Assembly (NCBI GenBank): GCA_000002445.1
Contig: CM000208.1
Coordinates: 3,776,001 to 3,840,000, forward strand
DNA from: Trypanosoma brucei
Taxonomy: Eukaryota
DNA: 64,000 nt
Reading direction: 5' to 3'
This document shows positions 32,701 through 49,034 of this stretch, piece after piece. The notes under the pieces were generated by a model. The model did no database searches. It was not told the DNA's origin and saw only the letters and a program-made list of their open reading frames with translations. Position numbers and translations under genes: made by a program. Every line of letters begins with the position of its first letter. Position 1 is the first letter of the stretch.

Positions 32701-34142
32701 AACATATCACACTTAACTACACCACGCCCACACACGGTGATACGATTCTGCATCTTCTGGTGCAGAACCACCAGATACAATTGGCACGGTACTTCCTCGC
32801 CGCGGCGCACTGCTTCTTCGCCTGCTACCAATACGACCAGCCGTCTACCGTTCCGCCGAACTTCCCGGTGAGCAGCGAGAGGGGGACCTGTGGAGACACA
32901 GTAGACAGTGACTCTAGATATCCTGCCGTGTTCTTGCGAAGCATGCTGCGCACAAATAAACATGGGCTGACAGCTTTTGATTATGCCCGGGGGATGATGG
33001 TGTCGGTACTACAAGAATACGGATGTGTTCCACCAACCTACCGCCCCAACCCCCGTGAGTTTTGCCACACCGTTCGGCTCGTTGATGGCATGAGTACCTT
33101 CCAAAGAGTTCCTCAGCTTCTTCTTGTCTCCCCAGACTTTGTGAAACTGCGTGACAACGTGCGCACAAATACAAAGCAGCAAGACCCGTCGGTCAAACCA
33201 GTTATCACAGACGCCACGATACAACGGAATCAAGCAGCTGCACTCCGCATCACACGGTCACATATCCTCACCACCATCCTTGCAGATGATGTTAGCTTGC
33301 TGCACCTTGGCCTCTGTGCTGCGGATGACGAGCTCGTGCTTGAAAATATTGAACGTAGAAGAAGAAAAAGAGCAGCTGAACTTTACCATCCTGCTGCTGC
33401 TTCAGGACGAAGCATGTCAAGTCCGCGAGGGCCCTCAATACGGGACCAGCAAGGTGGCAACCAAAGGTTAACTCGCCTTCCGCACATCGGCGGCGCAGCA
33501 GAAACTGCTGCTCGGACGAGTACCCCGGCCAGTGGTGGTCGGAAGGTTGACAAGGAAATGCACAGCATGATGAAACTCATTGACTCTCTTCAAAAACGTG
33601 GTCTTGTTGTATTCCCGCTGCTACTACCCGCGACAGAAGATGACAAGAAACGCACGGCAGCAATACATAGCAATGATGGATTAGCCCTCCAACTGGCCAT
33701 GACACCTATGACCGTAGCACTCCAACAAGGTGCAGTTAAGCTCGAGGTGGCGACTGTAACTTCCCCCAACCCCACACAACAACAGCAGCAACAACACCGC
33801 AGTCCTGTAAGTGCTACCGAGCCCTTGGACAGCATGTACAACAATGACGTGCAGGACGCGACAATATCACCACGCTCGCTACAGCCTTACACGTTCCCAC
33901 CGAAAGACACCCCCAGACAGCACCCTGCCAATATGCTGGAGGCATGGTTAGCAAGCAGCAAAATGCAAAAGGGAGTGCACACCAAAGTAAGCCAGGAGCT
34001 ACATCAGAATACTCAGGCGATAATAAGAGTCATGGAAAAAGGAAACTGTTCTCGGTCAGCAAAACAAATCGGACTTACTGTGTCAATGCCGTACGAAATA
34101 CGCAACGAAGAAAGCACCACTAAAGAGTCATTCAGAAAATAA
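23760..34142 (+). CDS. Giant (3460 aa) SPRY-domain and ankyrin-repeat protein
   Basis: Uninterrupted 10.4-kb ORF from an ATG. Around aa ~880-900 there is a SPRY/B30.2-like segment (VIGCHVDMTTRSASYTVNGVSLGTVFTALPSATGLRPAVSLQ). Around aa ~1180-1600 there are multiple ankyrin repeats (TALHLACENGQLAVVRALIAGGAQLNVQN; TPLHLAVESGHEKVALDIV; GDTVLHAAARKGMLSVIEYI; GHTPLLAAIHAHQEEAAQLI). More ankyrin-like repeats occur near the C-terminus (GDTILHLLVQNHQIQLARYFL). Confidence 0.85.
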   Translation: MTSAAALRPPVTLLWDARVSCSTQEKGKQDGSSPVLDSEPHIISLGELDVLSCSDEELELHLNGIRDLVQSRPDSWLKKKGGKGFSKRQLALIQDELVHYQGVLKQANEILSWLLCRLNDRISVLRRDESMLREYYESLERGTGIDEDYNMHKKDKFHRRLRESKRRAPIKRYSKELEFLTSRHTQLVQLLTTVESEERAYNVRGADEDTSRRSKLLSPEDTKIEEIYRDAAAAGGGKAVTLMRMRALQPLIRKEQELRFVPPLLASDVHSRLRKEIILPFSVRVLALKIEKGNIIGDKFVQWYINTVVDPLTMAQLVELVPREHLVTTTVRLAKVCDAYPQSRRAQPLPDISHVVLESVSEGRIDAFASLVLSTSATCTRALRDKDEEAIILFSAVITAQVEVIRRIISVGFYNTNALNVWLFLNPNNKCNYYKTYVHETTNNVKKYLSSLSRSSRDHLSTEGAEEDVIEMAQITLTQKWEEWDSSLLTGGLGASLRHFLNNRLLWKRNTSTPKPRSSASRGGRDSAAEGWEKGHGMDVSLSVSFTPSLLNKLTSGDPTFSSLLSRRKFDRLPMSAPKCAVLPATSTPMLRRVDPWGYTPLETTGAHLLLVGDTSTVNAHVVRLPARRMTKWNEHVPNEPQDVRMQRDQMQTLIDSHGTRFYYEVHISLFFLINDVPLSPSPFEYTAAASENATSEGLPSQQRCTAYVGWCSEECVAAADGYSSNQPLGSDTSSIGISFDVVHRHRLDELTEEVILRPMKHAVGCTNTIEVANDGGEMQSVSLIRMYFQSWNRTPDGADENGSVSDDAISFGESRTSWVYSGLGTFSSEGFSLEKPRQPSETVVPFVKLVGEGNEESATEEDDSDDIPRVIRNVFRLAGVPVYKSQSIVIGCHVDMTTRSASYTVNGVSLGTVFTALPSATGLRPAVSLQVSEEMKSILQGVNQSDSTVVRFVFDRHLLLSHHMELLEPGAVEIESTTRSSSLQDIKPLGGSEEVELIPGMGITKDALLFDGDMMQCAMVRLLTGAERGSCSDAFDDEELMKGGRESISLGTALRVRTSSIRALLNNPTPNEDLLFFPPVLLRRRSDESEKVASGITIIPEDAMLAPLCAALAMRQRIAAYQIVIHPLLDFETSNHIMLQQRRMAVLACSTLGYEEVLYVLLQRMAIHEVVALFSIKAPAAPQDSQPKLNRRFAIIPANSANKITSASTLQYFHYTPLHCALLEGHTNCAHLLLFYLNRALGKEYLRHALNVFSRGGETALVISSRVGYTDIAKRLLALGASPFLFDRVTRSNCLELACAGGSEEIALALLDTPDFHSPVAVNQAGSAPPLCWCALKNISALVRPLLENGADPNVTLDGPTPLFLAVMFESQEVALELLRYCESTANKTAPSANAYRAALRKRFGAPTARRPGGEELGDEGPLAMLDVDAMDPRTQCTALHLACENGQLAVVRALIAGGAQLNVQNKASFATPLHLAVESGHEKVALDIVEYAKNKLRRGHEVLDINAIDKSGDTVLHAAARKGMLSVIEYIMSQFSEEEVARIHKNHDFSKRPSPANVLAVNRQGHTPLLAAIHAHQEEAAQLIASLVPDYLANPGGAIVSGTCVAISESDVEGLDNVTLFLLSSPNYVATEDFRKRFFDHYNAKRAEMDLSEDYPNSEEVRRPRVALHVNKRHSKRRGRRVRVVPSFRKQRMSFRLSISSMYGVGRSRGSTSAVARDVRTEDSRSRWVVANEHLARSKMTRIAPRRCSMFVRMLLAKGYRNPTTRKTIQFLKQGFAIDELYAMLDVISFETLRKAQSHWSMQYTDSIISFLHMFGGVHVAPIDAVLFIRKLFYSHELTENVDKEQVEESKQKLMNMRPLCRDLVNMVRTRGTLTDCVEDMRQMVLQSGLSGDKLTEELTSPFGYTVLQLAATLSLANVCTYLINECHMSPLFVPAGHSDESTSNATTTRARSDDEDSEQKWLLSPFRLAVRTLNIEVITAFLACDYNSFSIHDMLDHKELPIADPFQRTAIQELLSKPTDTLSDEAIGSIVTVLRLLLRHGVSVQGNFDALGNDAWMMAVCSSPGKGIALQVFLEEHVELGEEDIASETGESFTQPAFSDGNRDEEEEEEDEEREQHPQTECSSEADGGRSEDFLTEPSASMVSETATMNSSLSLVLTMRRKPGEALASFGYVRRRVGRRRGQRSSEYYASLIFACAENNPQLLAKFITEYPHVLSTDVINSKTGETLLMYLLRRASDLYVLECGLRNLFLWEGKTDAPTPSPDSAGALLYDTPQTHPTVESGSTPYRDPLTIPGVRILLGVVDQLLRTFSFNNLHYECNGQTALTLAARLSCNPAVRHIVIQGCQQAGSDTTTVVLSSPSKSSTKVLGWGTLSGGDRSPARMSSPCNEGLQNELRIFNCWMSLCNCLYYTEEDMEALFAVLRHLPSSIRVSFLGMVYPNLHPMVALRVAVLYTNAMKRILIKPMVSSTFWCSVFYAQFVGRLEEEVLRNGKWNTLLSILLPCASAIPIYLLKSMPSFPETSPDDLLPGTSLASVTPTEQSTERIARGSVLQQPSNWRTIINGTEQYIKQIATAAVCAVAPVHLTSGTQSYKNLPAVRQSFLSEMASHFHEVLELAVRFDNCALLSALINMLPADLCHCLKFEWRCLMEKNHLPVIAVTAGSVNVLKYLERIPEAGRYVTYDRYDRIDTDTGMPDDYAANEHNAQQDATQPRRRSISLPSIAFLGSNERPQNTLSPHKGLDKAGDASPSEKKQSEGGQLKGSNSGTAAGNSQEAGDTTKEGTLHSWDVISAVHQRKAVGAVTWGVGAAARPVSMHKQSVSKESSNTTMKLSRGRQHGGATRRRSAGTGKSFNVTPASSAPDSWRSGADGKPKSSPSKRRLSLEGGPGTGGTSFTSPSRGMRLFSITPEVREQPRYFAYYLCDWALHTTLLLHAPYPSMRMIETLLHLMDNRAPLSASAIHMFLAASRPMNHWSSGEGEHITLNYTTPTHGDTILHLLVQNHQIQLARYFLAAAHCFFACYQYDQPSTVPPNFPVSSERGTCGDTVDSDSRYPAVFLRSMLRTNKHGLTAFDYARGMMVSVLQEYGCVPPTYRPNPREFCHTVRLVDGMSTFQRVPQLLLVSPDFVKLRDNVRTNTKQQDPSVKPVITDATIQRNQAAALRITRSHILTTILADDVSLLHLGLCAADDELVLENIERRRRKRAAELYHPAAASGRSMSSPRGPSIRDQQGGNQRLTRLPHIGGAAETAARTSTPASGGRKVDKEMHSMMKLIDSLQKRGLVVFPLLLPATEDDKKRTAAIHSNDGLALQLAMTPMTVALQQGAVKLEVATVTSPNPTQQQQQQHRSPVSATEPLDSMYNNDVQDATISPRSLQPYTFPPKDTPRQHPANMLEAWLASSKMQKGVHTKVSQELHQNTQAIIRVMEKGNCSRSAKQIGLTVSMPYEIRNEESTTKESFRK

Positions 34143-39307: not shown

Positions 39308-40861
39308 ATGTCTGGAGAAAACTTGAATAAATCGATGAGTGCTGAAAGGGTTGCTGGGTCGTTGTCCGTAGGTCATGGCGTAGATCATGGTTCTCGTAAA
39401 CGAGCTCGTTCTATTTGTTTGAAGCAAAATTTTTCTCGACTTTTGTACCAGATGGTTATTCGTCAGCTGCATCATGATGGTTTTCTTGCTGCTGCATCCG
39501 CTGTCGCAGACGCTACTAACGTTGTTGTTCCGAGGCTGGAGGAAAATGCTGATCGATTGTCGAAGGTGGTTAGTTGGGGTCTCGCTGTGGAGGAGAGCAG
39601 TGTGGTTGAAATTGAGAACTTCTTCAAATTTGAAGTTGTTGAGCGATATTTGAGTGCATCGAGGGTATATATGCCGCTACACCTATCAGAGAGTGCAAGG
39701 GTGGGATCCATGGCGTATCGTATGCGAGAGCGTTTTATTACCTCATCTCTAGGTGGTGTTGTTCGACGTCTGGCATTTTCTTCGGATGGTTCGCTTATTG
39801 CATGTGGGGGAACTGATGGTCTGTGTGCCATTTTTTCTTTGAATACAATTGAGGATCTCAGTGCCCTTGAAGAAGTGCGGCAGGAGCAGCACTTTAACGG
39901 ACTTGATGGGAGTAACCCTAGTAATATTGGGGTGGGCAACGCAAGCAACAAAATTACGGAGCTCGCTGAGGCCCGTCGCTTTCATGAACACACGCACTCT
40001 GTGGAGGCTATTTCCTTTCATCCAACCAAGCAGCTTCTTGTCACTGGAGGTTTCGAGGGAGATTTGTACATTCGTGACTACAGTCAACCAGACAACCACG
40101 TTGTACACAAATTACGTGATGCTTTTCCTGTACGTTCCGCCGTTTTTCATCCCTCTGGAGAATACGTGCTGTACGCTACAGATCACACCACGCCAAGGCT
40201 TCTGAACCTCCGGAGTGGATCAGTGGTGGCCCCTGTGGCACACTCCGATAACGCTGCAGCAACCTGCGTAACCGCGATGGCAGGAGGAAAGGGAGTAGCT
40301 CGTGGTGCTTCTCAGAGGAAAGGCTGTGACGCAGGCCACGCGGCTGCTCTATGTGACGTGGATTTTTCTCCCGACGGCCGGACCTTCGCCTCATGCGGTC
40401 TAGACGGATCACTGATTGTGTATGACGGAGTCAGTAGTCGCATTGTGGCGAAGGTAAACAATGCACACTCAAGTGTTCCGGTAACCAGCGTAAAATTTAG
40501 TCGAACTGGTAATATTCTCCTCACCGCGGGCATGGACTCAGTTGCTCGGCTGTGGGACCTGCGGCGTGGGGATGGTGGGTGGGGCTGTACAGAAGTTATG
40601 TCGTTCGGCGAGCCTGGAAAATGTAATCACCGCAGCTTCCGTGCTTCTTTCAGCTGCAACGAAAGCCACGTCCTCTCCCAGGACACTTCCCTGTTTGCCA
40701 TTCACGCACACTGCGTCTACACAGGGGATACCTCATACACACTTACGGTGCCCAACCACATGCAGCGGGGCTTTGCCCCTGCGCCTTTTAGTAATGTAGT
40801 CGTTAGCGGTGGCGACGACTCACGTATGCGGCTATGGACACCGGCATGGACCACGGCGTGA
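39308..40861 (+). CDS. LisH-like + WD40 repeat protein
   Basis: 517 aa starting at an ATG. The N-terminus has a LisH-like helix pair (FSRLLYQMVIRQLHHDGFLAAASAVADAT). At least five WD40 blades have the typical G-x-D...W/Y-D endings (GGTDGLCAIFSL, TGGFEGDLYIRD, SCGLDGSLIVYD, TAGMDSVARLWDL, SGGDDSRMRLW). It sits 70 bp downstream of the array end, behind a pyrimidine-rich stretch and an AG. Confidence 0.8.
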   Translation: MSGENLNKSMSAERVAGSLSVGHGVDHGSRKRARSICLKQNFSRLLYQMVIRQLHHDGFLAAASAVADATNVVVPRLEENADRLSKVVSWGLAVEESSVVEIENFFKFEVVERYLSASRVYMPLHLSESARVGSMAYRMRERFITSSLGGVVRRLAFSSDGSLIACGGTDGLCAIFSLNTIEDLSALEEVRQEQHFNGLDGSNPSNIGVGNASNKITELAEARRFHEHTHSVEAISFHPTKQLLVTGGFEGDLYIRDYSQPDNHVVHKLRDAFPVRSAVFHPSGEYVLYATDHTTPRLLNLRSGSVVAPVAHSDNAAATCVTAMAGGKGVARGASQRKGCDAGHAAALCDVDFSPDGRTFASCGLDGSLIVYDGVSSRIVAKVNNAHSSVPVTSVKFSRTGNILLTAGMDSVARLWDLRRGDGGWGCTEVMSFGEPGKCNHRSFRASFSCNESHVLSQDTSLFAIHAHCVYTGDTSYTLTVPNHMQRGFAPAPFSNVVVSGGDDSRMRLWTPAWTTA

Positions 40862-41834
40862 AATATTGTCCCCTTGGTGGCCCAGTAACTTCAAACTAGT
40901 TCTGCTTTTTAATGGCGGAAAGGAACGACAAACTCTTGTGGATTCCTCTTGCCTGGAGCCTCGATCAAGTGACAGAGCGTCGTTGAAAAGGAGGAAACAA
41001 AGGGGAGGGCGGTTGAATCTTACATCTGGGATCTGCATTCGATGCCATTTGTGGACCTCTGTTGAGCCATGCTTCGTTAGAGCCAACAAGGCCCAAAAGT
41101 TGCAACCGTTACAGGAGACACGTGTATCATGTTGTGAATCGGTTTCGTATGATTGACCGCGCTGGTGGCATAACGATTTCAGGTCCCCCTCTTTTATTAT
41201 TCTTAAATCATTTTCACGCGCGCACATTGCTTCCACTTGCGGGCGGGGGTTATGCATTTCATCAAAATGGGCAGTCTGCTTCTGATTAAATTTCAACTGA
41301 TCGTTATCTTGTTCTCTTCTTATGTGTTTTCGCTGATTACCCTTCGTCTTCATCGTGAATTCCTCACCCGTCCTACAAAGGACGGAAAGCAAGGCCAGTG
41401 GGAGAAGGTAGGGTCAAACCTTGAAGATAAGTTCATAATTATCCGCCTAGCAAAAGAAAGGGGAAACAGGCCAGTGTGAAAGGGGAGTGAGGGAAGCTGC
41501 AGCAGTGCTCGCTCCCTTCCTCTCTTCTGTTGAAGCTACTGGCCGCCGCGGGGCGTCGAGGTGTTTCGTGGGGGAGGCGAAGGGAAAGGGAAAAGAGGTT
41601 TAGTTAGTCCCTGCAAGAAGCAGGGGCTCATTGCTATTCACTGTGCCACTTCTCTGGGGGTGGGGCACGGCAGCTGTGACTTTCGGAAGTAACCAAAGGA
41701 AAGCTGGTGCATTAATAACGGCACGTAGAAGTACAACACGGGGAGGAATCTTTTTGCTGTCTGGAGTGCGACCCAAGGCAATTTCGTGTATACAGTAGGT
41801 AATTCCTGACGTATCCTTTTGATACCTGTAAATT

Positions 41835-44800
41835 ATGTCTGGTCTGACTTCACACAACATCTCAGCTACATCTATTCGTGTGCATGGAATCACACGTGAA
41901 CGTGATATGTGCGTTTTCTGCCGGAAGCGCTCTTCGCCACCACCTAATGATCCGCTGGCACCAGTATTTGCCTTCTTCTCGCTGGTTGACTGCCGTCACT
42001 ACGCGTGCCAACCGTGTGCTCTCGTGCATTGCGACAACGCTGGGCGGCATATACGTTGCCCCGCGTGTTGCGCGATTTCTCGTCTCGCGCAGTCGGGCCG
42101 CCGTCGCGGAAACCGTGTGGATGAACGAGTGCCAATAGATGACGGCGTATCGTCGGCGGCATCGCAGAGCTCAAAAAGAGTGTTGGCCCCACCGAAGCGT
42201 TCACTCTCCGTCACTGACCGGCGGAGACGTACGTCATCTGTTCAGTTCTCAACAAACTTAACATCGCCCAGTGGGCAGAAGGAGGCCCTCAGCACCGGCG
42301 GCTCTAACACGTCATTGACACTTGCCGCGGTCGGCCGGCTGCCAACCGACCCTAACTATAGCAAAGGCAAAGGGGATGAAGGAGGAACCGTTGCGGCCTT
42401 CAGCGAGGAGGAACGAATATCGGTCGATTTGTACACCATTAAGGGCACCGCTGCAAAACGCCCGCGTCGCACAACAGCTGAACGTGCCCGCAGTCAGCCG
42501 CTTCCTCCGGCAGAATATCGCTATTTGCCACCACCAACGCCGTTCCATCGCCCGCCGCCGCTAGTAATTCACACGATTGAGGAGGAAGAAGAGGTTGCGG
42601 CTTCATTCCAACTCATTGTAAGGGAAATCGAGCAAACTATCGCTGCTACGCTAGTAAAGGAGGCAGATGAGCGTGACACAATCGGAATTGCGGAAGCACA
42701 CCGCCGCAACGTCCTTTCAAAATTACGTGAAGAGGATGAAAGAAAGAGATTTGCAGCACATCACGAACTCAATGACGAGTTTTCTGATGCCAAATTAAGT
42801 CCTCGCACAACAACAAACGCATCAGACGGCCAAGTCAGTGAAACATCCGATGAAGGAATGTCAGAACTCTCAACACAACAAGACTCAATTCAAAAGAACT
42901 ACAAACAACCCATAGATCAAAAAGCAATGATCACAAAGGAAAGAACAGGAACACCTACCGCAGCGGAAAAACAAACAAAACACCAACAACAAACAATCAC
43001 CAAACAGAACACTGAAGAAGAAAAAAAAGAAGCAAAAAATGAAAACAATAAGGAGAGTAAAAAAAAACGGCGTGAGCGTGTTGAGGTTGCTACATGGGAT
43101 TCGGAACAACAGCTGCGGCTCTTTGAACAACTTATGGATCTCGCTCGTGATGAACAACAGCACCGTGCCAAAATACAGCGTGACGAAACTCGTATGCATG
43201 CGGAAATGGAACGAAGTGAGGCTAGCGATGTTGCAACAATCAAGGCTGCAATGGAGGCCATGGCAGAGTCAGCACGTAGAGAGCAGGAGGAATTATTGCG
43301 TGATGAGAAGGAAGAACGCTACACCATCCAAGAGGATGAGCGACGGCTACGGCGCAACATAACGCGACAGAGCGCGGAGCTCTCACTCGACGTCAGCATG
43401 CAGCATGTGCAACAACGTGGTAAGGAGGACGCACAAAGGGAATTGGATATGCTAAGGGTTGCACTGGAATCAACTGCTGTTGAAACCACTTCGCGCGCTC
43501 GCCTCAACCTCATTGTAACGGAGGAACTGAGGGCACGTGATTCCCTGTGCAGTGACGAAGCAAGTGAACGAGCCATGCACGCAGCAGAAGAGCGACGTGA
43601 GCGTGTTGAGGTTGCTACATGGGATTCGGAACAACAGCTGCGGCTCTTTGAACAACTTATGGATCTCGCTCGTGATGAACAACAGCACCGTGCCAAAATA
43701 CAGCGTGACGAAACTCGTATGCATGCGGAAATGGAACGAAGTGAGGCTAGCGATGTTGCAACAATCAAGGCTGCAATGGAGGCCATGGCAGAGTCAGCAC
43801 GTAGAGAGCAGGAGGAATTATTGCGTGATGAGAAGGAAGAACGCTACACCATCCAAGAGGATGAGCGACGGCTACGGCGCAACATAACGCGACAGAGCGC
43901 GGAGCTCTCACTCGACGTCAGCATGCAGCATGTGCAACAACGTGGTAAGGAGGACGCACAAAGGGAATTGGATATGCTAAGGGTTGCACTGGAATCAACT
44001 GCTGTTGAAACCACTTCGCGCGCTCGCCTCAACCTCATTGTAACGGAGGAACTGAGGGCACGTGATTCCCTGTGCAGTGACGAAGCAAGTGAACGAGCCA
44101 TGCACGCAGCAGAAGAGCGACGTGAGCGTGTTGAGGTTGCTACATGGGATTCGGAACAACAGCTGCGGCTCTTTGAACAACTTATGGATCTCGCTCGTGA
44201 TGAACAACAGCACCGTGCCAAAATACAGCGTGACGAAACTCGTATGCATGCGGAAATGGAACGAAGTGAGGCTAGCGATGTTGCAACAATCAAGGCTGCA
44301 ATGGAGGCCATGGCAGAGTCAGCACGTAGAGAGCAGGAGGAATTATTGCGTGATGAGAAGGAAGAACGCTACACCATCCAAGAGGATGAGCGGCGGCTAC
44401 GGCGCAACATAACACGACAGAGCGCGGAGCTCTCACTCGACGTCAGCATGCAGCATGTGCAACAACGTGGTAAGGAGGACGCACAAAGGGAATTGGATAT
44501 GCTAAGGGTTGCACTGGAATCAACTGCTGTTGAAACCACTTCGCGCGCTCGCCTCAACCTCATTGTAACGGAGGAACTGAGGGCACGTGATTCCCTGTGC
44601 AGTGACGAAGCAAGTGAACGAGCCATGCACGCAGCAGAAGAGCGACGTGAGCGTGTTGAGGTTGCTACATGGGATTCGGAACAACAGCTGCGGCTCTTTG
44701 AACAACTTATGGATCTCGCTCGTGATGAACAACAGCACCGTGCCAAAATACAGCGTGACGAAACTCGTATGCATGCGGAAATGGAACGAAGTGAGGCTGA

Positions 44801-47081
44801 CGGAATCTTGGCATGCGGTGCTCAGAGTGAAGGAGCCGATTCTTTTGAAGTTGCTTCTTCGGGGTGTGATTGTGTTTTTCGTCCTTCTGGTGCTGATTGT
44901 GCCTCTTTCTCTCCGTATGTTTGTCGAGGGGGTGGTGTTTTGCCGCTTGATGTTGAAATTCCTGTTGGTTTGGCGTATTCAGCGCATGGCAGCACATCAG
45001 CTGAGGTTATTTCAGTTGACTATACCTCTTTTTTGCCTATTGTTGGCAGTGACGCTCAGGGTGAATCATCTTTGTGGAATACTCTTGACGATGATGGTGG
45101 CGTTGTTTTTGGTGATGTTTGCGCGGGTGGGGACGATGTTGGCATTGATGTAAATGACGTTGAGAGTGTGCACATCAGCAGGGGATGTTCAACCGTACTT
45201 GACGCCGGTGGCGTTGGCGCAACTGCTGAAGTATATGCTTTAGATGAAAAGTGGCGTGATGGGACTGCGGTAAGCGCTGAGCCCCCTCGCATTCCAGCAA
45301 GTAGGATTTGTCGTACTTGCTTCTCCACTGATACGAGTAGATGTGCGCGTTGTGGCACAATGGTGTGCTCTCATTGTATTCCTTCAGGTTCGTTTCGTCA
45401 GTGCTGTACGTTACATCACCTTACCATTATCAACAAGAGGTGCAGGGTAATGACTGAAACGAGGGTGCACGCTAGGTGGGAGTGCCGGAGGTTGTTTAGG
45501 CAGTTCCGACTCGAGCAACGGATGAGAAGGCGGAGAGAAAATGTGGTAAACACTCGAGGGTTTGATGTAGTCGTTCTTACACCGGAGCAAAAGGGTGACA
45601 ACTCTAACCTGCACGAGGTTAAGACGCCTCCTAGAGTCACTCGTCGATTCTTAAACCAAGAAAATGACAGTGAGGAAGATGCTGCATGGAAATCACATTA
45701 TCTTGAGTCATGGCCATCTGATTCGGGGCAGATGCCACCTTGCGGACTCAAACAAGAGCGGTTTGATGAATTTAATGATGCCGAAAATAGTATGAACCTA
45801 ACGGCAGATAATGAGCCCAAGACCGAAAGAAAAAGAGCCACAGCATTCTTTGTACCATTAGGTAATAGCGCCGAACCAAGGAGGCCCAAACCTCCGACAC
45901 CTAGAAACTATGTTCCCGGAATTATCCACAATTGTACGAAAGCTCCGCAGAGCAAGCGAGCAGTTTCAAGAATGCGTTTCCGGCGCCTTCGGAGGCAAAA
46001 CGCAACGGGTAATACTAAGAACACAACGTTGAATTCTGCTGCTGCAGGAAGAAATGTACAGGAACATCGCGCCGCAAGCAGTTCCAAGCCGCGGCCACAA
46101 GAAAGCTGGGCACGGCAAAGACCTGTGCAGCGTCAGGGTGCCTTTATTACGGCAGACCCCGTGAGAGGGATCACGAGAAGCGGCCCAACGTCCAATTCCT
46201 GGCGCCGCCGGAATTTCCGCACGAAAAGCCGGTCACCAGCTGGGTATGGCGGCAAAGCAAGTGCTTGCAATTTCCACGGTGATCGATGCGGGGACGCCAT
46301 GGCACTGGGACGCACATATTACGACGGTAACCCCGTGAGGAGTAAGGGGTTGGCTTACGTTCTGGACGAAGAGCCACCACAGAGAGGATATGAGCCGACG
46401 CCACCAACCAGACTGCAGAGCAACCGGGTAGTCAAATCGGGGGTACACAGCGGCGAAGAACATACAAGGATGGGGTGTCAACACGAGTGGGAGCCTGACC
46501 AGCAATGTGTACCATTATTTGAGGAGTTTCATGCGTCTTCCTCGACCCCACCCTGGCGGCCTCCGTTCTCGCGTGACCCACCACCTCCGCGCCGCAACCA
46601 CAGGAACACAAACATAGGAGGTCGAACACACCGTACGCTAGCCCCCTTTCCAGCACGCCAACGCCTTTGCCACCCGCGGCAACGCAGTGCCGCCGACCTC
46701 ACACGCAACGCAAGTCCCGGGCAGGCGTGCAGCAGATTCCATTACAATCCACTGGACGACGTTGATCGTGCTGCCTTCGTTGGTGGACCGCGCGGAGCAC
46801 AACGGCAACCGCCTACGAGTGTAGCGGAGCCATGTATTACCGTGCATCTCTTTCCGCCTTCTTCGTACGGAGGGGGAGCGGGAACTTCTGGACGGCATCC
46901 GTTGCGGGGTCCAACCGCAAGGAGACACTCAAGTCGTGCCCACAGGCCCTCACCAGCTCGAGCGGCTTCACCTCCGTGGCGAACAGACCTAAACACCCCG
47001 TTCATTTGTCCCCCATGGAACGCGAACCGGCCTGACACGTTTATTGCAAAGCCGTATACCCGCACCACGTGCAGAAGGTAG
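41835..47081 (+). CDS. RING-finger (C3HC4) protein with Glu/Arg-rich coiled-coil tandem repeats and a second Cys-rich cluster
   Basis: The N-terminus reads CVFC-x19-C-R-H-YAC-QPC-x13-CPAC, matching the RING-HC spacing C-x2-C...C-x-H-x2-C-x2-C...C-x2-C. The central region has 3.3 perfect 175-aa repeats, highly charged and predicted helical. A C-terminal cluster (CRTC-x8-CARC...CSHC) may be a second zinc-binding module. The last ~550 aa are Pro/Arg-rich and low-complexity. Confidence 0.8.
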   Translation: MSGLTSHNISATSIRVHGITRERDMCVFCRKRSSPPPNDPLAPVFAFFSLVDCRHYACQPCALVHCDNAGRHIRCPACCAISRLAQSGRRRGNRVDERVPIDDGVSSAASQSSKRVLAPPKRSLSVTDRRRRTSSVQFSTNLTSPSGQKEALSTGGSNTSLTLAAVGRLPTDPNYSKGKGDEGGTVAAFSEEERISVDLYTIKGTAAKRPRRTTAERARSQPLPPAEYRYLPPPTPFHRPPPLVIHTIEEEEEVAASFQLIVREIEQTIAATLVKEADERDTIGIAEAHRRNVLSKLREEDERKRFAAHHELNDEFSDAKLSPRTTTNASDGQVSETSDEGMSELSTQQDSIQKNYKQPIDQKAMITKERTGTPTAAEKQTKHQQQTITKQNTEEEKKEAKNENNKESKKKRRERVEVATWDSEQQLRLFEQLMDLARDEQQHRAKIQRDETRMHAEMERSEASDVATIKAAMEAMAESARREQEELLRDEKEERYTIQEDERRLRRNITRQSAELSLDVSMQHVQQRGKEDAQRELDMLRVALESTAVETTSRARLNLIVTEELRARDSLCSDEASERAMHAAEERRERVEVATWDSEQQLRLFEQLMDLARDEQQHRAKIQRDETRMHAEMERSEASDVATIKAAMEAMAESARREQEELLRDEKEERYTIQEDERRLRRNITRQSAELSLDVSMQHVQQRGKEDAQRELDMLRVALESTAVETTSRARLNLIVTEELRARDSLCSDEASERAMHAAEERRERVEVATWDSEQQLRLFEQLMDLARDEQQHRAKIQRDETRMHAEMERSEASDVATIKAAMEAMAESARREQEELLRDEKEERYTIQEDERRLRRNITRQSAELSLDVSMQHVQQRGKEDAQRELDMLRVALESTAVETTSRARLNLIVTEELRARDSLCSDEASERAMHAAEERRERVEVATWDSEQQLRLFEQLMDLARDEQQHRAKIQRDETRMHAEMERSEADGILACGAQSEGADSFEVASSGCDCVFRPSGADCASFSPYVCRGGGVLPLDVEIPVGLAYSAHGSTSAEVISVDYTSFLPIVGSDAQGESSLWNTLDDDGGVVFGDVCAGGDDVGIDVNDVESVHISRGCSTVLDAGGVGATAEVYALDEKWRDGTAVSAEPPRIPASRICRTCFSTDTSRCARCGTMVCSHCIPSGSFRQCCTLHHLTIINKRCRVMTETRVHARWECRRLFRQFRLEQRMRRRRENVVNTRGFDVVVLTPEQKGDNSNLHEVKTPPRVTRRFLNQENDSEEDAAWKSHYLESWPSDSGQMPPCGLKQERFDEFNDAENSMNLTADNEPKTERKRATAFFVPLGNSAEPRRPKPPTPRNYVPGIIHNCTKAPQSKRAVSRMRFRRLRRQNATGNTKNTTLNSAAAGRNVQEHRAASSSKPRPQESWARQRPVQRQGAFITADPVRGITRSGPTSNSWRRRNFRTKSRSPAGYGGKASACNFHGDRCGDAMALGRTYYDGNPVRSKGLAYVLDEEPPQRGYEPTPPTRLQSNRVVKSGVHSGEEHTRMGCQHEWEPDQQCVPLFEEFHASSSTPPWRPPFSRDPPPPRRNHRNTNIGGRTHRTLAPFPARQRLCHPRQRSAADLTRNASPGQACSRFHYNPLDDVDRAAFVGGPRGAQRQPPTSVAEPCITVHLFPPSSYGGGAGTSGRHPLRGPTARRHSSRAHRPSPARAASPPWRTDLNTPFICPPWNANRPDTFIAKPYTRTTCRR
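43071..44795 (+). repeat. Coding tandem repeat, 525-bp (175-aa) unit, ~3.3 copies, essentially identical
   Basis: 'cgtgagcgtgttgaggttgctacatggg' recurs at 43071, 43596, 44121 and 44646. Only two differences were seen between the copies at 43596 and 44121 (gacgg/gcggc, aacgcg/aacacg). Confidence 0.95.
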
Positions 47082-47176
47082 CAATCCTGTGAAGAAAGGG
47101 GAGACCTTACTTCATATAAGTACGTTTTGTTCCCCTCTTTCGCTCACTCTGCGAATGGATGTAATTGGTATTGTTA

Positions 47177-47233
47177 GTTCAAGGGCGCTGGCGTAACTTT
47201 GCCAGCTGTTAAGTTACGCCAGCGCCCTTGAAC
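47177..47233. repeat. Perfect 23-bp inverted repeat (hairpin) with an 11-nt loop
   Basis: 47177-47199 'gttcaagggcgctggcgtaactt' is the exact reverse complement of 47211-47233 'aagttacgccagcgcccttgaac'. The loop is 'tgccagctgtt' and contains the palindrome CAGCTG. It is intergenic, ~100 bp after the RING gene stop. Confidence 0.85.
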
Positions 47234-47646
47234 CTAACAGTACCAAAGATTGTGAGAGAGGTGTGAGCTATCAATACGCTCGCAGATGATACTTTAGCCT
47301 ATGGATTACTCGAGATGGAGAAAGAATGTTCTGTTGATATTTTTTATCTTTGTGTATAGGTGGTAAGGTCAAAGATCAAGTAAGGCACGAGTGACGTTTG
47401 CGTGTCGGGAGAGTATTGAATAAAAAAGGGAATAGAGGTATGCGTGCCTCGTTTGCGTATATAGATAGAATGTGAGGGTGATCATATGTATTTGGAGTTT
47501 GAAAGGAAAAAATAAAAGAAGTGCATCTTGACGTAGGGAATTTCACTCTGCCGTTAACTACATGGATATAGAAGGGGATAAAAAGAATATCATAGACGCG
47601 TAATTTGAAGGAAGTAACAATACTTTTGAATTTGACTAGACGTCGT

Positions 47647-47660
47647 CTTTTTTTTTTTTT
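47647..47660 (+). promoter_or_regulatory. Poly(T) tract; candidate trans-splicing/polyadenylation signal
   Basis: T14 run between the RING gene and the 48087 gene. Inferred role only. Confidence 0.3.
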
Positions 47661-48086
47661 AATGTCACCATCGTTACTTGTTATTGTTTCTCACCCGTAT
47701 CATTTCCCCCATTCGTATTCTTGTGTGCGTAACGTTACGATTTGGCAAAGACGCGAAATCAATGAACTTTGTCAGTGATTTTCTGTTGAAGTCTTTTTCG
47801 CCTTGTATTTATAGGGGCTCACGTGAAACTACTTTGCCTATTTCTTCCTTGTCTCTTACCATCTGTATCATGCACTACGCGTGGTGTGTTCGTTAGTTAA
47901 GATCAAATCATTAAAAGGGATATAGAGGAGCACAAGACAGAGGAAGCAAAGGACACATATATATATATACATCTGTACATATATTTTCAGTCCAAGGTTA
48001 CAAGGGACAGAAAGAACTTCATCATCAATAACAGTAAAACATATTACTCAAGGGGTGTTTCACTTCAACGGTTTACTGAAGTAAAT

Positions 48087-49034
48087 ATGAAATCAGAGGG
48101 GACGCCGATACCGACGAGAACGCCGAAGAGCGGGAAGAAGAAGAAGGAATTCACGCAGTTGGCACTCGCGAAGGACCATCGTTTCAACTGGATGGGTCAT
48201 GATGGTACAGAGTCGGAGACGCTCAACCTTGATCTCCTCCGCATCACCAATGAGGGCTGTCTACGCTTCAGTGATCAGGCTCGCCGCGACTACGTCATAA
48301 CGATGATTCGTGCCCGCCTTGGACAAATCAAGCTCGCCCTCGGTCTCTGCACGGAAGAGGACCTCGAGGATGATGAGGATGAAGACGACGACGAAGAGAA
48401 CAGCGAAGCCCAGGTTCTGTGGAGACTCGCCGTCAGGAGAGTAGAATTGCAGCAGGAGGCAGAGGAAAGGGGAGACAGCGGGGAGCCCCTTTACTACGGG
48501 ACGCCTACTGAGGAGGAAGTGGCAGAGGGCTACAGGAACTTCGTCAAGGGCACGCGTGTACTGCTGTCACATCTGAAGCAGACGTTTGTCTCGTACATCG
48601 ACGGCCGTGAATTCAACACGGTTGCGCAGTTGGTGGAGCATAACAATGCTCTTCGCCCAACGTATGAGGAAACTGCCGCCGCTGTCCAGCACCCCAAGTT
48701 CGAGCTGCCGCCTGTGGAAGAGTTTGACGCAGAACCCCTTCAGGCCTACGTTGAAAAGAGAAATGAGTGTCGCATGAAGATTGACGCGCTGCGCTGCTGC
48801 GGCGGTGGCGCGTACGCAATGCGGTACATGCGTGAGGAAGAGCTTGACGAAATTGGAACCCCACGTATCTACGTTGATATGGAGGACACGGAAGCCACTC
48901 TTGACGAAGAACTCCAGAACGCCCGCCAGAACCTTGCGAAGGAACGCTGGGAGTACAACTGCCGTGCGGCGAGGGTTTACCGCCGCTTGCAGAAATTCCT
49001 GGCCAGGCGGGCCGCCGCTGCTGAGCAATCGTAA
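48087..49034 (+). CDS. Hypothetical protein with acidic (DEDEDDDEE) stretch
   Basis: 315-aa ORF from an ATG, co-oriented and with coding-like composition. No recognisable domain. Contains an acidic run and predicted helical segments. Confidence 0.6.
   Translation: MKSEGTPIPTRTPKSGKKKKEFTQLALAKDHRFNWMGHDGTESETLNLDLLRITNEGCLRFSDQARRDYVITMIRARLGQIKLALGLCTEEDLEDDEDEDDDEENSEAQVLWRLAVRRVELQQEAEERGDSGEPLYYGTPTEEEVAEGYRNFVKGTRVLLSHLKQTFVSYIDGREFNTVAQLVEHNNALRPTYEETAAAVQHPKFELPPVEEFDAEPLQAYVEKRNECRMKIDALRCCGGGAYAMRYMREEELDEIGTPRIYVDMEDTEATLDEELQNARQNLAKERWEYNCRAARVYRRLQKFLARRAAAAEQS

What the first reader, a model, noticed from the sequence alone, without database searches (positions are those of the whole stretch)
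41835..47081. RING-HC finger protein carrying 3.3 perfect 525-bp coiled-coil repeats and a second Cys cluster
The N-terminal C3HC4 spacing is canonical for an E3-ligase RING. The middle of the protein is a highly charged, probably helical 175-aa unit repeated with essentially no divergence. Only two nucleotide differences were seen between the copies at 43596 and 44121, implying very recent duplication or ongoing homogenisation. A C-terminal CxxC-x8-CxxC...CxHC cluster could be a B-box or second zinc finger. The whole protein resembles a TRIM-like architecture (RING, coiled-coil, Cys box), which would be notable in a kinetoplastid.
Basis: partly seen in the sequence, partly recalled or inferred. 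Interest (0 to 1): 0.55.

Follow-up and report, generated by a model that had tools for sequence, protein, structure and literature searches.

The report
p197, the trypanosome kinetoplast-tether protein
This gene is p197 of Trypanosoma brucei, an already well-studied giant filament protein that ties the mitochondrial genome to the flagellar basal body; its near-identical repeats form a helical spacer, and nothing shows that it is a TRIM-like ubiquitin ligase.

Summary
ORF 41835-47081 (+) encodes 1748 aa with a C3HC4-spaced N-terminal Cys/His cluster, 3.3 copies of a 525-bp unit, and a second Cys cluster. The protein is an exact match to XP_828045.1/Q387T9 of T. brucei brucei TREU927. [quoted passage not shown]

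Published work shows that the N-terminal 365 aa bind TAC65 at the mitochondrial outer membrane. The C-terminal 520 aa bind the basal body. The 175-aa repeats are an alpha-helical spacer that sets the distance between the two. The 3.3 copies are an assembly collapse: about 26 by long reads and about 34.5 by Southern blot.

The RING-like ligands are invariant in every orthologue found, but all Pfam RING matches are below threshold and no E3 activity is known. The domain order is RING, helix, Cys box, which is not the TRIM order, so the TRIM reading is not supported.

Two small additions:
- The second cluster is a conserved eight-Cys module, B-box-like but below threshold, and the papers read here do not mention it.
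- T. congolense (175 aa) and T. vivax (243 aa, at least 13.7 copies) also carry near-identical homologous arrays, contrary to published statements that other kinetoplastids lack repeats.

Verdict: already known, low interest.

The parts
41835..47081 (+). Complete ORF of p197 (Tb927.10.15750) as assembled in T. brucei brucei TREU927: 1748 aa, 197.7 kDa, stop codon at 47079-47081.
   Evidence: ORF. Exact-sequence look-up gives XP_828045.1/EAN78933.1/UniProt Q387T9 on a 4,054,025-bp contig. Predicted mass 197.7 kDa, and the published truncations 1228+520 and 1383+365 both sum to 1748 aa.
41835..42107 (+). Highly conserved N-terminal block, aa 1-91: 48 of 105 aligned positions are invariant across trypanosomatids.
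   Evidence: Alignment A1, mean column identity 74%. Core alignment A3, 84%. PMC9546609 states that the N-terminal 150 aa are the most conserved part.
41910..42068 (+). RING-like C3HC4 zinc-finger motif, aa 26-78 (C26, C29, C53, H55, C58, C61, C75, C78).
   Evidence: Pattern and spacing are invariant in 19 orthologues and in distant ones: P0032, P0031, Angomonas, T. vivax. Pfam zf-C3HC4 matches the full profile (1-40 of 40) but scores only 14.4 bits against a cut-off of 21. The best PDB profile hit is the RNF113-type RING, E = 0.06. AF2 model unusable, pLDDT 44.
41835..42929 (+). N-terminal 365 aa: the region shown experimentally to be sufficient for anchoring to the mitochondrial outer membrane through TAC65.
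   Evidence: PMC9546609: the deltaC1383-HA construct and reciprocal co-IP with TAC65. Coordinates computed.
43063..44799 (+). Tandem array of 525-bp (175-aa) units, 3.3 copies in this assembly (aa 411-988). This is the alpha-helical spacer domain. The real copy number is about 26 to 35.
   Evidence: One NheI site per unit at 43221, 43746 and 44271, as used in the published Southern blot. Copy number from PMC9546609 and bioRxiv 10.1101/2023.03.06.531305. KMP11 binds this domain (PMC13539426).
44799..45308 (+). Acidic, Gly-rich linker after the repeats, aa 989-1158 (pI 4.1, 14% Gly). Poorly conserved.
   Evidence: Composition. No conserved block found in the alignment of post-repeat regions.
45309..45419 (+). 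Second zinc-finger-like module, aa 1159-1195. Eight invariant Cys (1159, 1162, 1170, 1173, 1178, 1181, 1190, 1191) followed by HH. B-box-like.
   Evidence: The eight Cys are the only invariant columns in A2 and A4. Pfam zf-B_box hits 10 of 13 orthologues, all below the 24.1-bit cut-off (best 23.9), covering profile positions 2-29 of 42; none for T. brucei itself. PDB profile search: IAP RINGs, E = 0.0045-0.05. AF2 pLDDT 82, but fold searches gave nothing significant. Absent in Phytomonas and in P0032.
45519..47078 (+). C-terminal 520 aa (aa 1229-1748): basic (pI 10.9), Arg/Pro/Ser-rich. Shown experimentally to be sufficient for basal body and pro-basal body localisation.
   Evidence: PMC9546609, deltaN1228-HA construct. 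Composition.
45816..45914 (+). Conserved motif block in the tail, aa 1328-1360: PKTERKRATAFFVPL...EPRRPKPPTPRNYV.
   Evidence: MAFFT alignment of 15 orthologues, column identity 0.82-0.93.
46965..47078 (+). Conserved extreme C-terminus, aa 1711-1748: SPPWRTDLN..P.W...P. Its presence shows that the ORF end is intact.
   Evidence: Present in all full-length orthologues, column identity 0.89. PMC9546609 notes that the last 60 aa are conserved.

Best explanation
The ORF is p197 (Tb927.10.15750) of Trypanosoma brucei. [quoted passage not shown]

Shown by published experiments:
- The N-terminal 365 aa dock onto the peripheral outer-membrane protein TAC65.
- The basic C-terminal 520 aa dock at the base of the mature and pro-basal body.
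- The central array of nearly identical 175-aa units is an alpha-helical spacer, and its length sets the distance between basal body and outer membrane.
- The 3.3 units in this window are a collapse of the Sanger-era assembly. The real array has about 26 to 35 units, giving a protein of roughly 660-880 kDa.

Shown here:
- The units are kept identical by concerted evolution.
- Homologous arrays exist in T. congolense and T. vivax.

Inferred:
- The invariant RING-like finger at aa 26-78 is a structural zinc module. It most likely forms or stabilises the TAC65-binding interface rather than acting as a catalytic E3.
- The second, eight-Cys module at aa 1159-1195 is a B-box-like zinc-binding module of unknown role. 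It lies outside the region needed for basal-body targeting.
For: Identity:
- Exact match to XP_828045.1/Q387T9 from TREU927.
- Predicted mass 197.7 kDa. The published constructs deltaN1228 (leaving 520 aa) and deltaC1383 (leaving 365 aa) both imply 1748 aa.
- The paper places the zinc finger at aa 26-78 and describes 3.5 repeats of 175 aa.
- The preprint's repeat register starts at residue 414 with the motif ERVEVATWDSEQQ, and NheI cuts once per 525-nt unit. Both are reproduced in the window.
- A Leishmania donovani orthologue is named 'Tripartite attachment complex protein 197'.
- Gene order is conserved in T. vivax and T. b. gambiense.

Mechanism: domain mapping, TAC65 co-IP and the length-versus-distance relationship are in PMC9546609. 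Southern blot gives 34.5 repeats. KMP11 binds the helical domain.

Assembly collapse: T. b. gambiense has at least 12 complete units, with a 100-N gap inside the array.

Concerted evolution: unit position 147 is Ile in 3 of 3 T. b. brucei copies and Val in 13 of 13 T. b. gambiense copies. T. congolense copies are 99% identical to each other but 63% identical to the T. brucei unit. T. vivax successive copies are 99.5-100% identical.

Zinc finger as an interaction module: conservation extends far beyond the ligands, with 40 of 71 core positions invariant, and the finger lies inside the TAC65-binding fragment.
Against: - No experiment has separated the zinc finger from the rest of the N-terminal 365 aa, so its role in TAC65 binding is inference. 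PMC9546609 says its relevance is unknown.
- The C3HC4 spacing, a hydrophobic residue after the first Cys and the invariant Pro after the seventh Cys are also what an E2-binding RING would show. This point rests on my own knowledge of RING E3s and was not tested here.
- Whether the helix is a coiled coil, a single stable helix or a folded-back bundle is unresolved. The heptad signal is 0.43 against 0.40 +/- 0.02 for shuffles, and opposite-charge i/i+3 and i/i+4 pairs number 38 against 29 +/- 4. The preprint's AlphaFold models do not converge.
- I could not map XP_828045.1 to the identifier Tb927.10.15750 directly with a tool. The link rests on the matching features listed above.
Confidence: 0.9

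Rival explanations
1. One reading: a TRIM-like E3 ubiquitin ligase. The N-terminal RING recruits an E2 and transfers ubiquitin, the helical repeats act as the TRIM coiled coil, and the C-terminal Cys cluster acts as the B-box.
For: C3HC4 spacing with all eight ligands invariant. Sub-threshold but full-length match to Pfam zf-C3HC4. The best PDB profile hits are RING domains, RNF113-type and Hakai. UniRef names several orthologues 'RING-type domain-containing protein' and one 'B box-type domain-containing protein'. The second cluster's best Pfam match is the B-box.
Against: Every Pfam RING and B-box score is below its curated cut-off. An exhaustive hmmsearch with the finger core reached only p197 orthologues and spurious repeat proteins. 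The domain order is RING, helix, Cys box, with long linkers, not the adjacent RING, B-box, coiled coil of TRIMs. The function demonstrated in the literature is structural tethering. No paper links p197 to ubiquitination. The Cys box is missing in Phytomonas and in P0032.
Confidence: 0.08
2. The repeat array is only an assembly or very recent duplication artefact with no functional meaning, and the true gene has one copy.
For: The copies are almost identical. Such arrays are prone to mis-assembly; T. b. gambiense has a gap inside its array.
Against: The error goes the other way. Long-read data give about 26 copies and a Southern blot gives 34.5. p197 migrates far above 260 kDa on SDS-PAGE, and a repeat-less version does not complement. 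Independent assemblies of T. b. gambiense, T. congolense and T. vivax all carry homologous arrays.
Confidence: 0.01
3. The second eight-Cys module is a true B-box that drives self-association of p197 molecules, as B-boxes do in TRIM assemblies. It would bundle filaments near the basal-body end.
For: Eight invariant Cys with B-box1-like spacing for the first six ligands. Pfam B-box hits in 10 of 13 orthologues, the best 23.9 bits against a cut-off of 24.1. A confident AF2 model with a beta-hairpin followed by a helix. The module lies between the spacer and the basal-body-binding tail.
Confidence: 0.15

Closest known systems
p197 (Tb927.10.15750), exclusion-zone filament protein of the T. brucei tripartite attachment complex (Gheiratmand 2013; Aeschlimann 2022, PMC9546609)
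   Same: It is this protein. The sequence is an exact match to the TREU927 product. It has the same length (1748 aa), mass (197.7 kDa), zinc-finger position (aa 26-78), 175-aa repeat, repeat register (starting at residue 414) and one NheI site per unit.
   Different: Nothing differs in the sequence. The reference copy number (3.3) under-represents the real array of about 26 to 35 units.
TRIM/RBCC E3 ligases (RING, B-box, coiled coil)
   Same: It contains a C3HC4-spaced finger, a long helical region and a B-box-like Cys cluster.
   Different: The order is RING, helix, Cys box, with linkers of hundreds of residues. No domain reaches Pfam's threshold. The helical part is hundreds to thousands of residues of near-identical repeats rather than a coiled coil of about 100-150 residues. 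The known role is a structural tether, and no ubiquitin ligase activity is reported.
Giant repeat-built cytoskeletal spacer or ruler proteins, for example the neighbouring 70-aa-repeat ORF in this window and the FAZ/PFR repeat proteins mentioned in the KMP11 paper
   Same: Near-identical long tandem repeats encode a helical rod whose length sets a cellular distance. They are collapsed in short-read or Sanger assemblies and are bound by KMP11.
   Different: p197 has specific docking modules at both ends: a zinc finger and TAC65-binding N-terminus, and a basic basal-body-binding C-terminus. It connects an organelle membrane to the basal body.
IAP-type and RNF113-type RING domains (best PDB profile hits)
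   Same: Similar Cys spacing and local sequence, for example lvdCrHyaCqpCalvh against vtkCRHYFCesCAleH. The second cluster aligns with the BIRC7 RING over about 58 residues.
   Different: E-values are marginal (0.0045 to 0.06 against 177,635 sequences). In the second cluster the RING His ligand is replaced and the last Cys pair is adjacent (CC).

Membership tests
p197 / TAC exclusion-zone filament protein | Sequence identity with the T. brucei TREU927 gene product studied as p197: 1748 aa, about 197 kDa | tested here: met
   Exact look-up gives XP_828045.1/Q387T9. Mass 197.7 kDa. Published truncations sum to 1748 aa.
p197 / TAC exclusion-zone filament protein | Central array of nearly identical 175-aa (525-nt) units, with one NheI site per unit and the register ERVEVATWDSEQQ starting at residue 414 | tested here: met
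   compared.
p197 / TAC exclusion-zone filament protein | Conserved N-terminal block of about 150 aa with a zinc finger at aa 26-78, and a conserved extreme C-terminus | tested here: met
   A1 alignment. C-terminal SPPWRTDLN motif. Matches the description in PMC9546609.
p197 / TAC exclusion-zone filament protein | Localisation between basal body and mitochondrial outer membrane; binds TAC65; essential for kDNA segregation | not testable with these tools
   Taken from PMC9546609.
RING-HC (C3HC4) zinc finger | Eight ligands with spacing C-x2-C-x(9-39)-C-x(1-3)-H-x(2-3)-C-x2-C-x(4-48)-C-x2-C, conserved in orthologues | tested here: met
   C26, C29, C53, H55, C58, C61, C75, C78 are invariant with identical spacing in 19 orthologues plus distant ones. 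The extra Cys66 is not conserved.
RING-HC (C3HC4) zinc finger | Score at or above the curated threshold of a RING profile | tested here: not met
   zf-C3HC4 14.4 bits against a cut-off of 21. zf-RING_5 about 10 bits against 27.9. Best E-values among 16 orthologues are 0.007-0.015. PDB profile hits E >= 0.06. No classical RING protein at E <= 0.001 in 1.84 billion proteins.
RING-HC (C3HC4) zinc finger | Cross-brace beta-beta-alpha fold binding two zinc ions | tested here: inconclusive
   AF2 with a 16-sequence alignment gave pLDDT 44. The predicted strand-strand-helix order is RING-like but unreliable.
RING-HC (C3HC4) zinc finger | E2 binding and ubiquitin transfer | not testable with these tools
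   No report found in the library.
TRIM / RBCC | N-terminal RING directly followed by one or two B-boxes and then a coiled coil, in that order | tested here: not met
   The order here is RING (aa 26-78), helical array (aa 411-988), Cys box (aa 1159-1195).
TRIM / RBCC | Heptad-based antiparallel dimeric coiled coil | tested here: inconclusive
   a/d occupancy by hydrophobic residues is 0.43 against 0.40 +/- 0.02 in shuffles. The preprint's AlphaFold models give a continuous helix with no defined packing.
B-box zinc finger (PF00643) | Score at or above Pfam's gathering threshold over the whole domain | tested here: not met
   Best 23.9 bits (L. seymouri) against a cut-off of 24.1. Others 11-18 bits. 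No hit for T. brucei, T. cruzi or T. melophagium. Only profile positions 2-29 of 42 are matched.
B-box zinc finger (PF00643) | Ligand pattern C-x2-C-x7-12-C-x2-C-x4-C-x2-[CH]-x3-6-H-x2-9-H (B-box1; pattern recalled from my own knowledge) | tested here: inconclusive
   The first six ligands fit exactly (C-x2-C-x7/8-C-x2-C-x4-C-x2-C). The last two positions are an invariant adjacent CC pair 8-10 residues later, and the following His is not invariant (Q in two orthologues).
B-box zinc finger (PF00643) | B-box fold | tested here: inconclusive

The most novel reading that the evidence does not exclude
The invariant RING-like finger of p197 could be a working E3 ligase (or a SUMO/ubiquitin-like ligase). 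From the filament tip it would modify TAC65, outer-membrane TAC subunits or p197 itself, coupling TAC assembly or turnover to the cell cycle. The conserved eight-Cys B-box-like module would mediate lateral bundling of filaments.

Separately, the evidence suggests that expansion of the central domain into near-identical arrays is a trait of all salivarian trypanosomes (T. brucei, T. congolense, T. vivax) and not of T. brucei alone. This could reflect a lineage-wide need for a longer or more extensible tether between basal body and mitochondrion.
Probability: 0.1. Interest if true: 0.55.

Novelty: already known. Interest (0 to 1): 0.15.

Why it matters
As a discovery it matters little. The gene, its repeats, its zinc finger and its function are published. 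Three practical points remain:

1. The reference sequence misrepresents the protein by roughly a factor of four (3.3 units against about 26-35). Anything computed from this ORF, such as mass, domain fractions, RNAi or CRISPR design, or proteomic coverage, is distorted.
2. The role of the strictly conserved RING-like finger is an acknowledged open question, and it can be tested directly with point mutants in the existing complementation system.
3. Two observations made here are not in the papers I read: a conserved eight-Cys module at aa 1159-1195, and homologous near-identical arrays in T. congolense and T. vivax. They correct the statement that only T. brucei has repeats. They also bear on the published idea that the repeats relate to T. 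brucei-specific basal-body movements.

Tried and rejected
- Tandem Repeats Finder on 40000-49000 returned nothing, because its longest period is 500. It was replaced by the repeat finder and a lag-525 scan.
- Pfam on the whole protein gave only a spurious FabA hit inside the repeat; disregarded.
- AF2 of aa 1-105 with 16 orthologues gave pLDDT 44, too poor for a fold search.
- The search for homologous proteins with the N-terminal alignment returned only one extra fragment.
- An exhaustive hmmsearch with the finger core found more orthologues but no classical RING. Hits P0030 and P0034-P0036 are repetitive proteins that score by summing many weak stretches; rejected as spurious.
- The T. congolense protein could not be traced to a contig, so its array was examined at the protein level only.
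- The T. vivax Y486 model (P0037, 1672 aa, annotated as a fragment) at first suggested no array. The long-read assembly showed that this, too, is a collapse or gap.
- A frameshifted or non-coding C-terminal half, considered because the tail is Arg/Pro-rich and of low complexity, was rejected. The conserved motifs PKTERKR..FFVP..PRRPKPPTPRNYV and SPPWRTDLN are in frame and present in all orthologues.
Full report
**Observation.**
The window holds an ATG-initiated ORF at 41835..47081 on the + strand, encoding 1748 aa. Tandem Repeats Finder reported nothing because its longest period is 500. A lag-525 scan shows near-perfect self-identity from 43068 to 44799, which is 1732 nt or 3.30 copies. The repeat finder gives four members spaced 525 nt apart. 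In register the copies are 43063-43587, 43588-44112 and 44113-44637, plus a partial copy ending at 44799. Both changes are synonymous, so the three protein copies are identical.

The N-terminus carries C26-x2-C29-x23-C53-x-H55-x2-C58-x2-C61-x13-C75-x2-C78. A second cluster reads C1159-x2-C1162-x7-C1170-x2-C1173-x4-C1178-x2-C1181-x8-C1190-C1191-x2-HH.

**Identity.**
An exact-sequence look-up finds the 1748-aa product as XP_828045.1/EAN78933.1/UniProt Q387T9. It is annotated 'hypothetical protein, conserved' in Trypanosoma brucei brucei TREU927, on a 4,054,025-bp contig. The homologue search returns T. b. gambiense (98%), T. congolense, T. cruzi, T. rangeli, Leptomonas, Phytomonas and many Leishmania proteins. 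One of these is named 'Tripartite attachment complex protein 197'.

The literature confirms the lead. Aeschlimann et al. [quoted passage not shown] The following checks agree:
- The ORF's mass is 197.7 kDa.
- The paper's constructs deltaN1228 (leaving 520 aa) and deltaC1383 (leaving 365 aa) both imply a 1748-aa reference.
- The preprint's repeat register (residues 414-588, motif ERVEVATWDSEQQ) coincides with the window's protein.
- NheI cuts once per unit, at 43221, 43746 and 44271.
- All large ORFs in the window are on the + strand. The upstream neighbours (an ankyrin/SPRY giant and a WD40 CstF50-like protein) are syntenic in T. vivax and T. b. gambiense.

**What it does (from the literature).**
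[quoted passage not shown] This complex ties the kinetoplast DNA to the flagellar basal body so that the single mitochondrial genome is segregated with the basal bodies.
- The N-terminal 365 aa suffice for anchoring at the mitochondrial outer membrane and co-precipitate with TAC65.
- The C-terminal 520 aa suffice for localisation to the mature and pro-basal body.
- The central repeat domain is predicted to be 96% helical, and its length sets the distance between basal body and outer membrane. Versions without repeats, or with the shorter T. cruzi central domain, shorten that distance proportionally and do not complement.
- KMP11 binds the central helical domain (PMC13539426).

**Copy number.**
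The 3.3 units are an assembly collapse. A long-read assembly gives about 26 units and a Southern blot on an engineered allele gives 34.5 (68% CI 31.5-38.0). A 2025 paper cites 35 or more and a mass above 880 kDa. Adding units of 20.6 kDa to the window's ORF gives 665 kDa for 26 units, and 840 kDa with a 21.6-kb ORF for 34.5 units. In T. b. gambiense DAL972 the gene is split into two partial models by a 100-N gap inside the array. It still shows 12 complete units, four of which are a 182-aa variant.

**Why the copies are identical.**
Unit position 147 is Ile in all three T. b. brucei copies and Val in all 13 T. b. gambiense copies, so the substitution is fixed across each array. This is the signature of concerted evolution, not merely of a recent duplication. 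One caveat is that collapsed assemblies may show consensus-like copies.

**The RING question.**
All eight C3HC4 ligands are invariant with identical spacing in 19 orthologues. The same holds in more distant sequences recovered by an exhaustive profile search: Angomonas, T. vivax and an environmental 1967-aa protein, P0032. In P0032 and P0031 the extra Cys66 is lost, so Cys66 is not a ligand.

Conservation goes far beyond the ligands: 40 of 71 core positions are invariant. Against this, no curated RING profile is passed:
- zf-C3HC4 covers the full profile but scores 14.4 bits against a cut-off of 21.
- Across 16 orthologues the best E-values are 0.007 (zf-RING_5) and 0.015 (zf-C3HC4).
- An unrelated C2HC model matches more members than either.
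- A profile search of PDB sequences puts RNF113-type and Hakai RINGs on top, but only at E = 0.06-1.
- The exhaustive search of 1.84 billion representatives reaches no classical RING at E <= 0.001. The non-orthologue hits are repetitive proteins that score through many weak stretches.
- AF2 on the shallow alignment failed, with pLDDT 44.

I therefore call it RING-like. The pattern and its conservation are met, profile membership is not met, and the fold and catalysis are untested. PMC9546609 says only that this zinc finger is conserved and that its relevance is unknown. No paper in the library links p197 to E3 activity. Because the finger sits inside the fragment that binds TAC65 and is conserved at nearly every residue, I infer that it is a structural zinc module of that interface. 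This is inference, not demonstration.

**The second Cys cluster.**
In alignments of 13-14 orthologues the eight Cys are the only invariant columns, which is typical of a zinc-binding module. Pfam's B-box model is the commonest match, hitting 10 of 13 orthologues. All hits are below the 24.1-bit cut-off (best 23.9, in L. seymouri), they cover only the first 28 of 42 profile positions, and there is no hit for the Trypanosoma sequences. A PDB profile search instead puts IAP RINGs first, at E = 0.0045-0.05.

**TRIM-like architecture.**
This reading is not supported. TRIM proteins have RING, B-box and coiled coil adjacent and in that order. Here the order is as follows:
- the finger (aa 26-78);
- about 330 aa of linker;
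- the helical array (aa 411-988 in this assembly, thousands of residues in reality);
- a 170-aa acidic, Gly-rich linker;
- the Cys box (aa 1159-1195);
- a basic, Pro-rich tail of about 550 aa.

The repeat unit is 41% charged, with no Pro and one Gly. Its heptad a/d occupancy (0.43) is close to that of shuffles (0.40 +/- 0.02). Opposite-charge i/i+3 and i/i+4 pairs are modestly enriched (38 against 29 +/- 4). 'Helical' is therefore well supported, while 'coiled coil' is open. The preprint's AlphaFold models likewise give a continuous helix per unit with no defined packing between units.

**An addition to the literature.**
Both p197 papers state that orthologues in other kinetoplastids lack repeats. 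That holds for T. cruzi and Leishmania, which show no dominant period. It does not hold for the other salivarian trypanosomes:
- The T. congolense IL3000 protein (truncated at 1037 aa) has at least 3.3 units of 175 aa (one of 168 aa) in the same register. They are 99% identical to each other and 63% identical to the T. brucei unit.
- In the T. vivax long-read assembly GCA_021307395.1 the syntenic gene is split into a 759-aa N-terminal model and a 3494-aa continuation. From L001:12323 to the end of the fetched locus there are 13.7 copies of a 729-nt (243-aa) unit. Successive copies are 99.5-100% identical. The unit is colinear with the T. brucei unit apart from insertions of 14 and 58 aa.
- T. 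cruzi has the homologous segment as a single copy, at about aa 840-1226.

Near-identical arrays derived from the same ancestral stretch of the central domain are thus found in all three salivarian lineages examined. I could check T. congolense only at the protein level.

**Verdict.**
The finding is a correct reading of the sequence, but it concerns an already known and well-characterised gene. The E3/TRIM interpretation is not supported. The repeat number is an assembly artefact in the direction of too few copies. Interest is low. The residual open points are the function of the invariant RING-like finger, the undescribed eight-Cys module, and the distribution of the arrays across salivarian trypanosomes.

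Noticed in passing
window 7512-17870 (+), repeats at 7770-13319: A second giant ORF (3452 aa, no Pfam hit) about 30 kb upstream of p197 holds about 25-26 tandem copies of a 210-bp (70-aa) unit at 98-99% identity. It is probably another repeat-built cytoskeletal protein, and its copy number may also be mis-assembled.
   Followed up: no
window 23760-34142 (+): A 3460-aa ORF with ankyrin repeats (around aa 1430-1490) and an SPRY domain (aa 842-940). It is syntenic upstream of p197 in T. vivax and T. b. gambiense.
   Followed up: partly
window 39308-40861 (+): A 517-aa WD40 protein with a CstF1 (CstF50) dimerisation domain just above threshold (PF16699, 27.7 bits against a cut-off of 26.6), immediately upstream of p197. 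It is syntenic in T. vivax and T. b. gambiense.
   Followed up: no
L001:12323-22280 (T. vivax GCA_021307395.1, contig SOPI01000021.1): T. vivax p197 carries at least 13.7 copies of a 729-nt (243-aa) near-identical unit homologous to the T. brucei repeat. The gene is split into two models (759 aa and 3494 aa), apparently by a frameshift around L001:12280-12537. This contradicts published statements that other kinetoplastids lack the repeats.
   Followed up: yes
P0003 (T. congolense IL3000, TCIL3000_10_13540), aa 463-1037: At least 3.3 tandem 175-aa units (one of 168 aa), 99% identical to each other and 63% identical to the T. brucei unit. The model ends inside the array, so it is truncated. No contig could be retrieved.
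   Followed up: partly
L002:10001-20729 (T. b. gambiense DAL972, FN554973.1): p197 is annotated as two partial genes separated by a 100-N gap inside the array (L002:16279-16378). The N-terminal part contains four 182-aa variant units (ESARRKQQYA[RM]RDREE[IS][EK]AD instead of ESARREQEELLRD). The C-terminal model ends in a different frame from T. b. brucei and lacks the SPPWRT motif.
   Followed up: partly
P0032 (environmental, JGI/NCBI, 1967 aa), about aa 560-900: This distant p197-like protein keeps the RING-like ligands but lacks the second Cys cluster. By eye it has its own, unrelated internal duplication of roughly 130 aa in the central domain (…ARSVTVASKA…LQRRSQMLE[IM]QSQLFNRRRTALIDEESLGRSECATNERISFQ…). 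This suggests that duplication of central helical segments recurs.
   Followed up: no
window 42885-44746 (- strand) and 43039-45153 (+, other frames): Several ORFs of 100-190 aa overlap the repeat array on the opposite strand and in other frames. They recur with the 525-nt period and are by-products of the repeat's biased composition, not genes.
   Followed up: no
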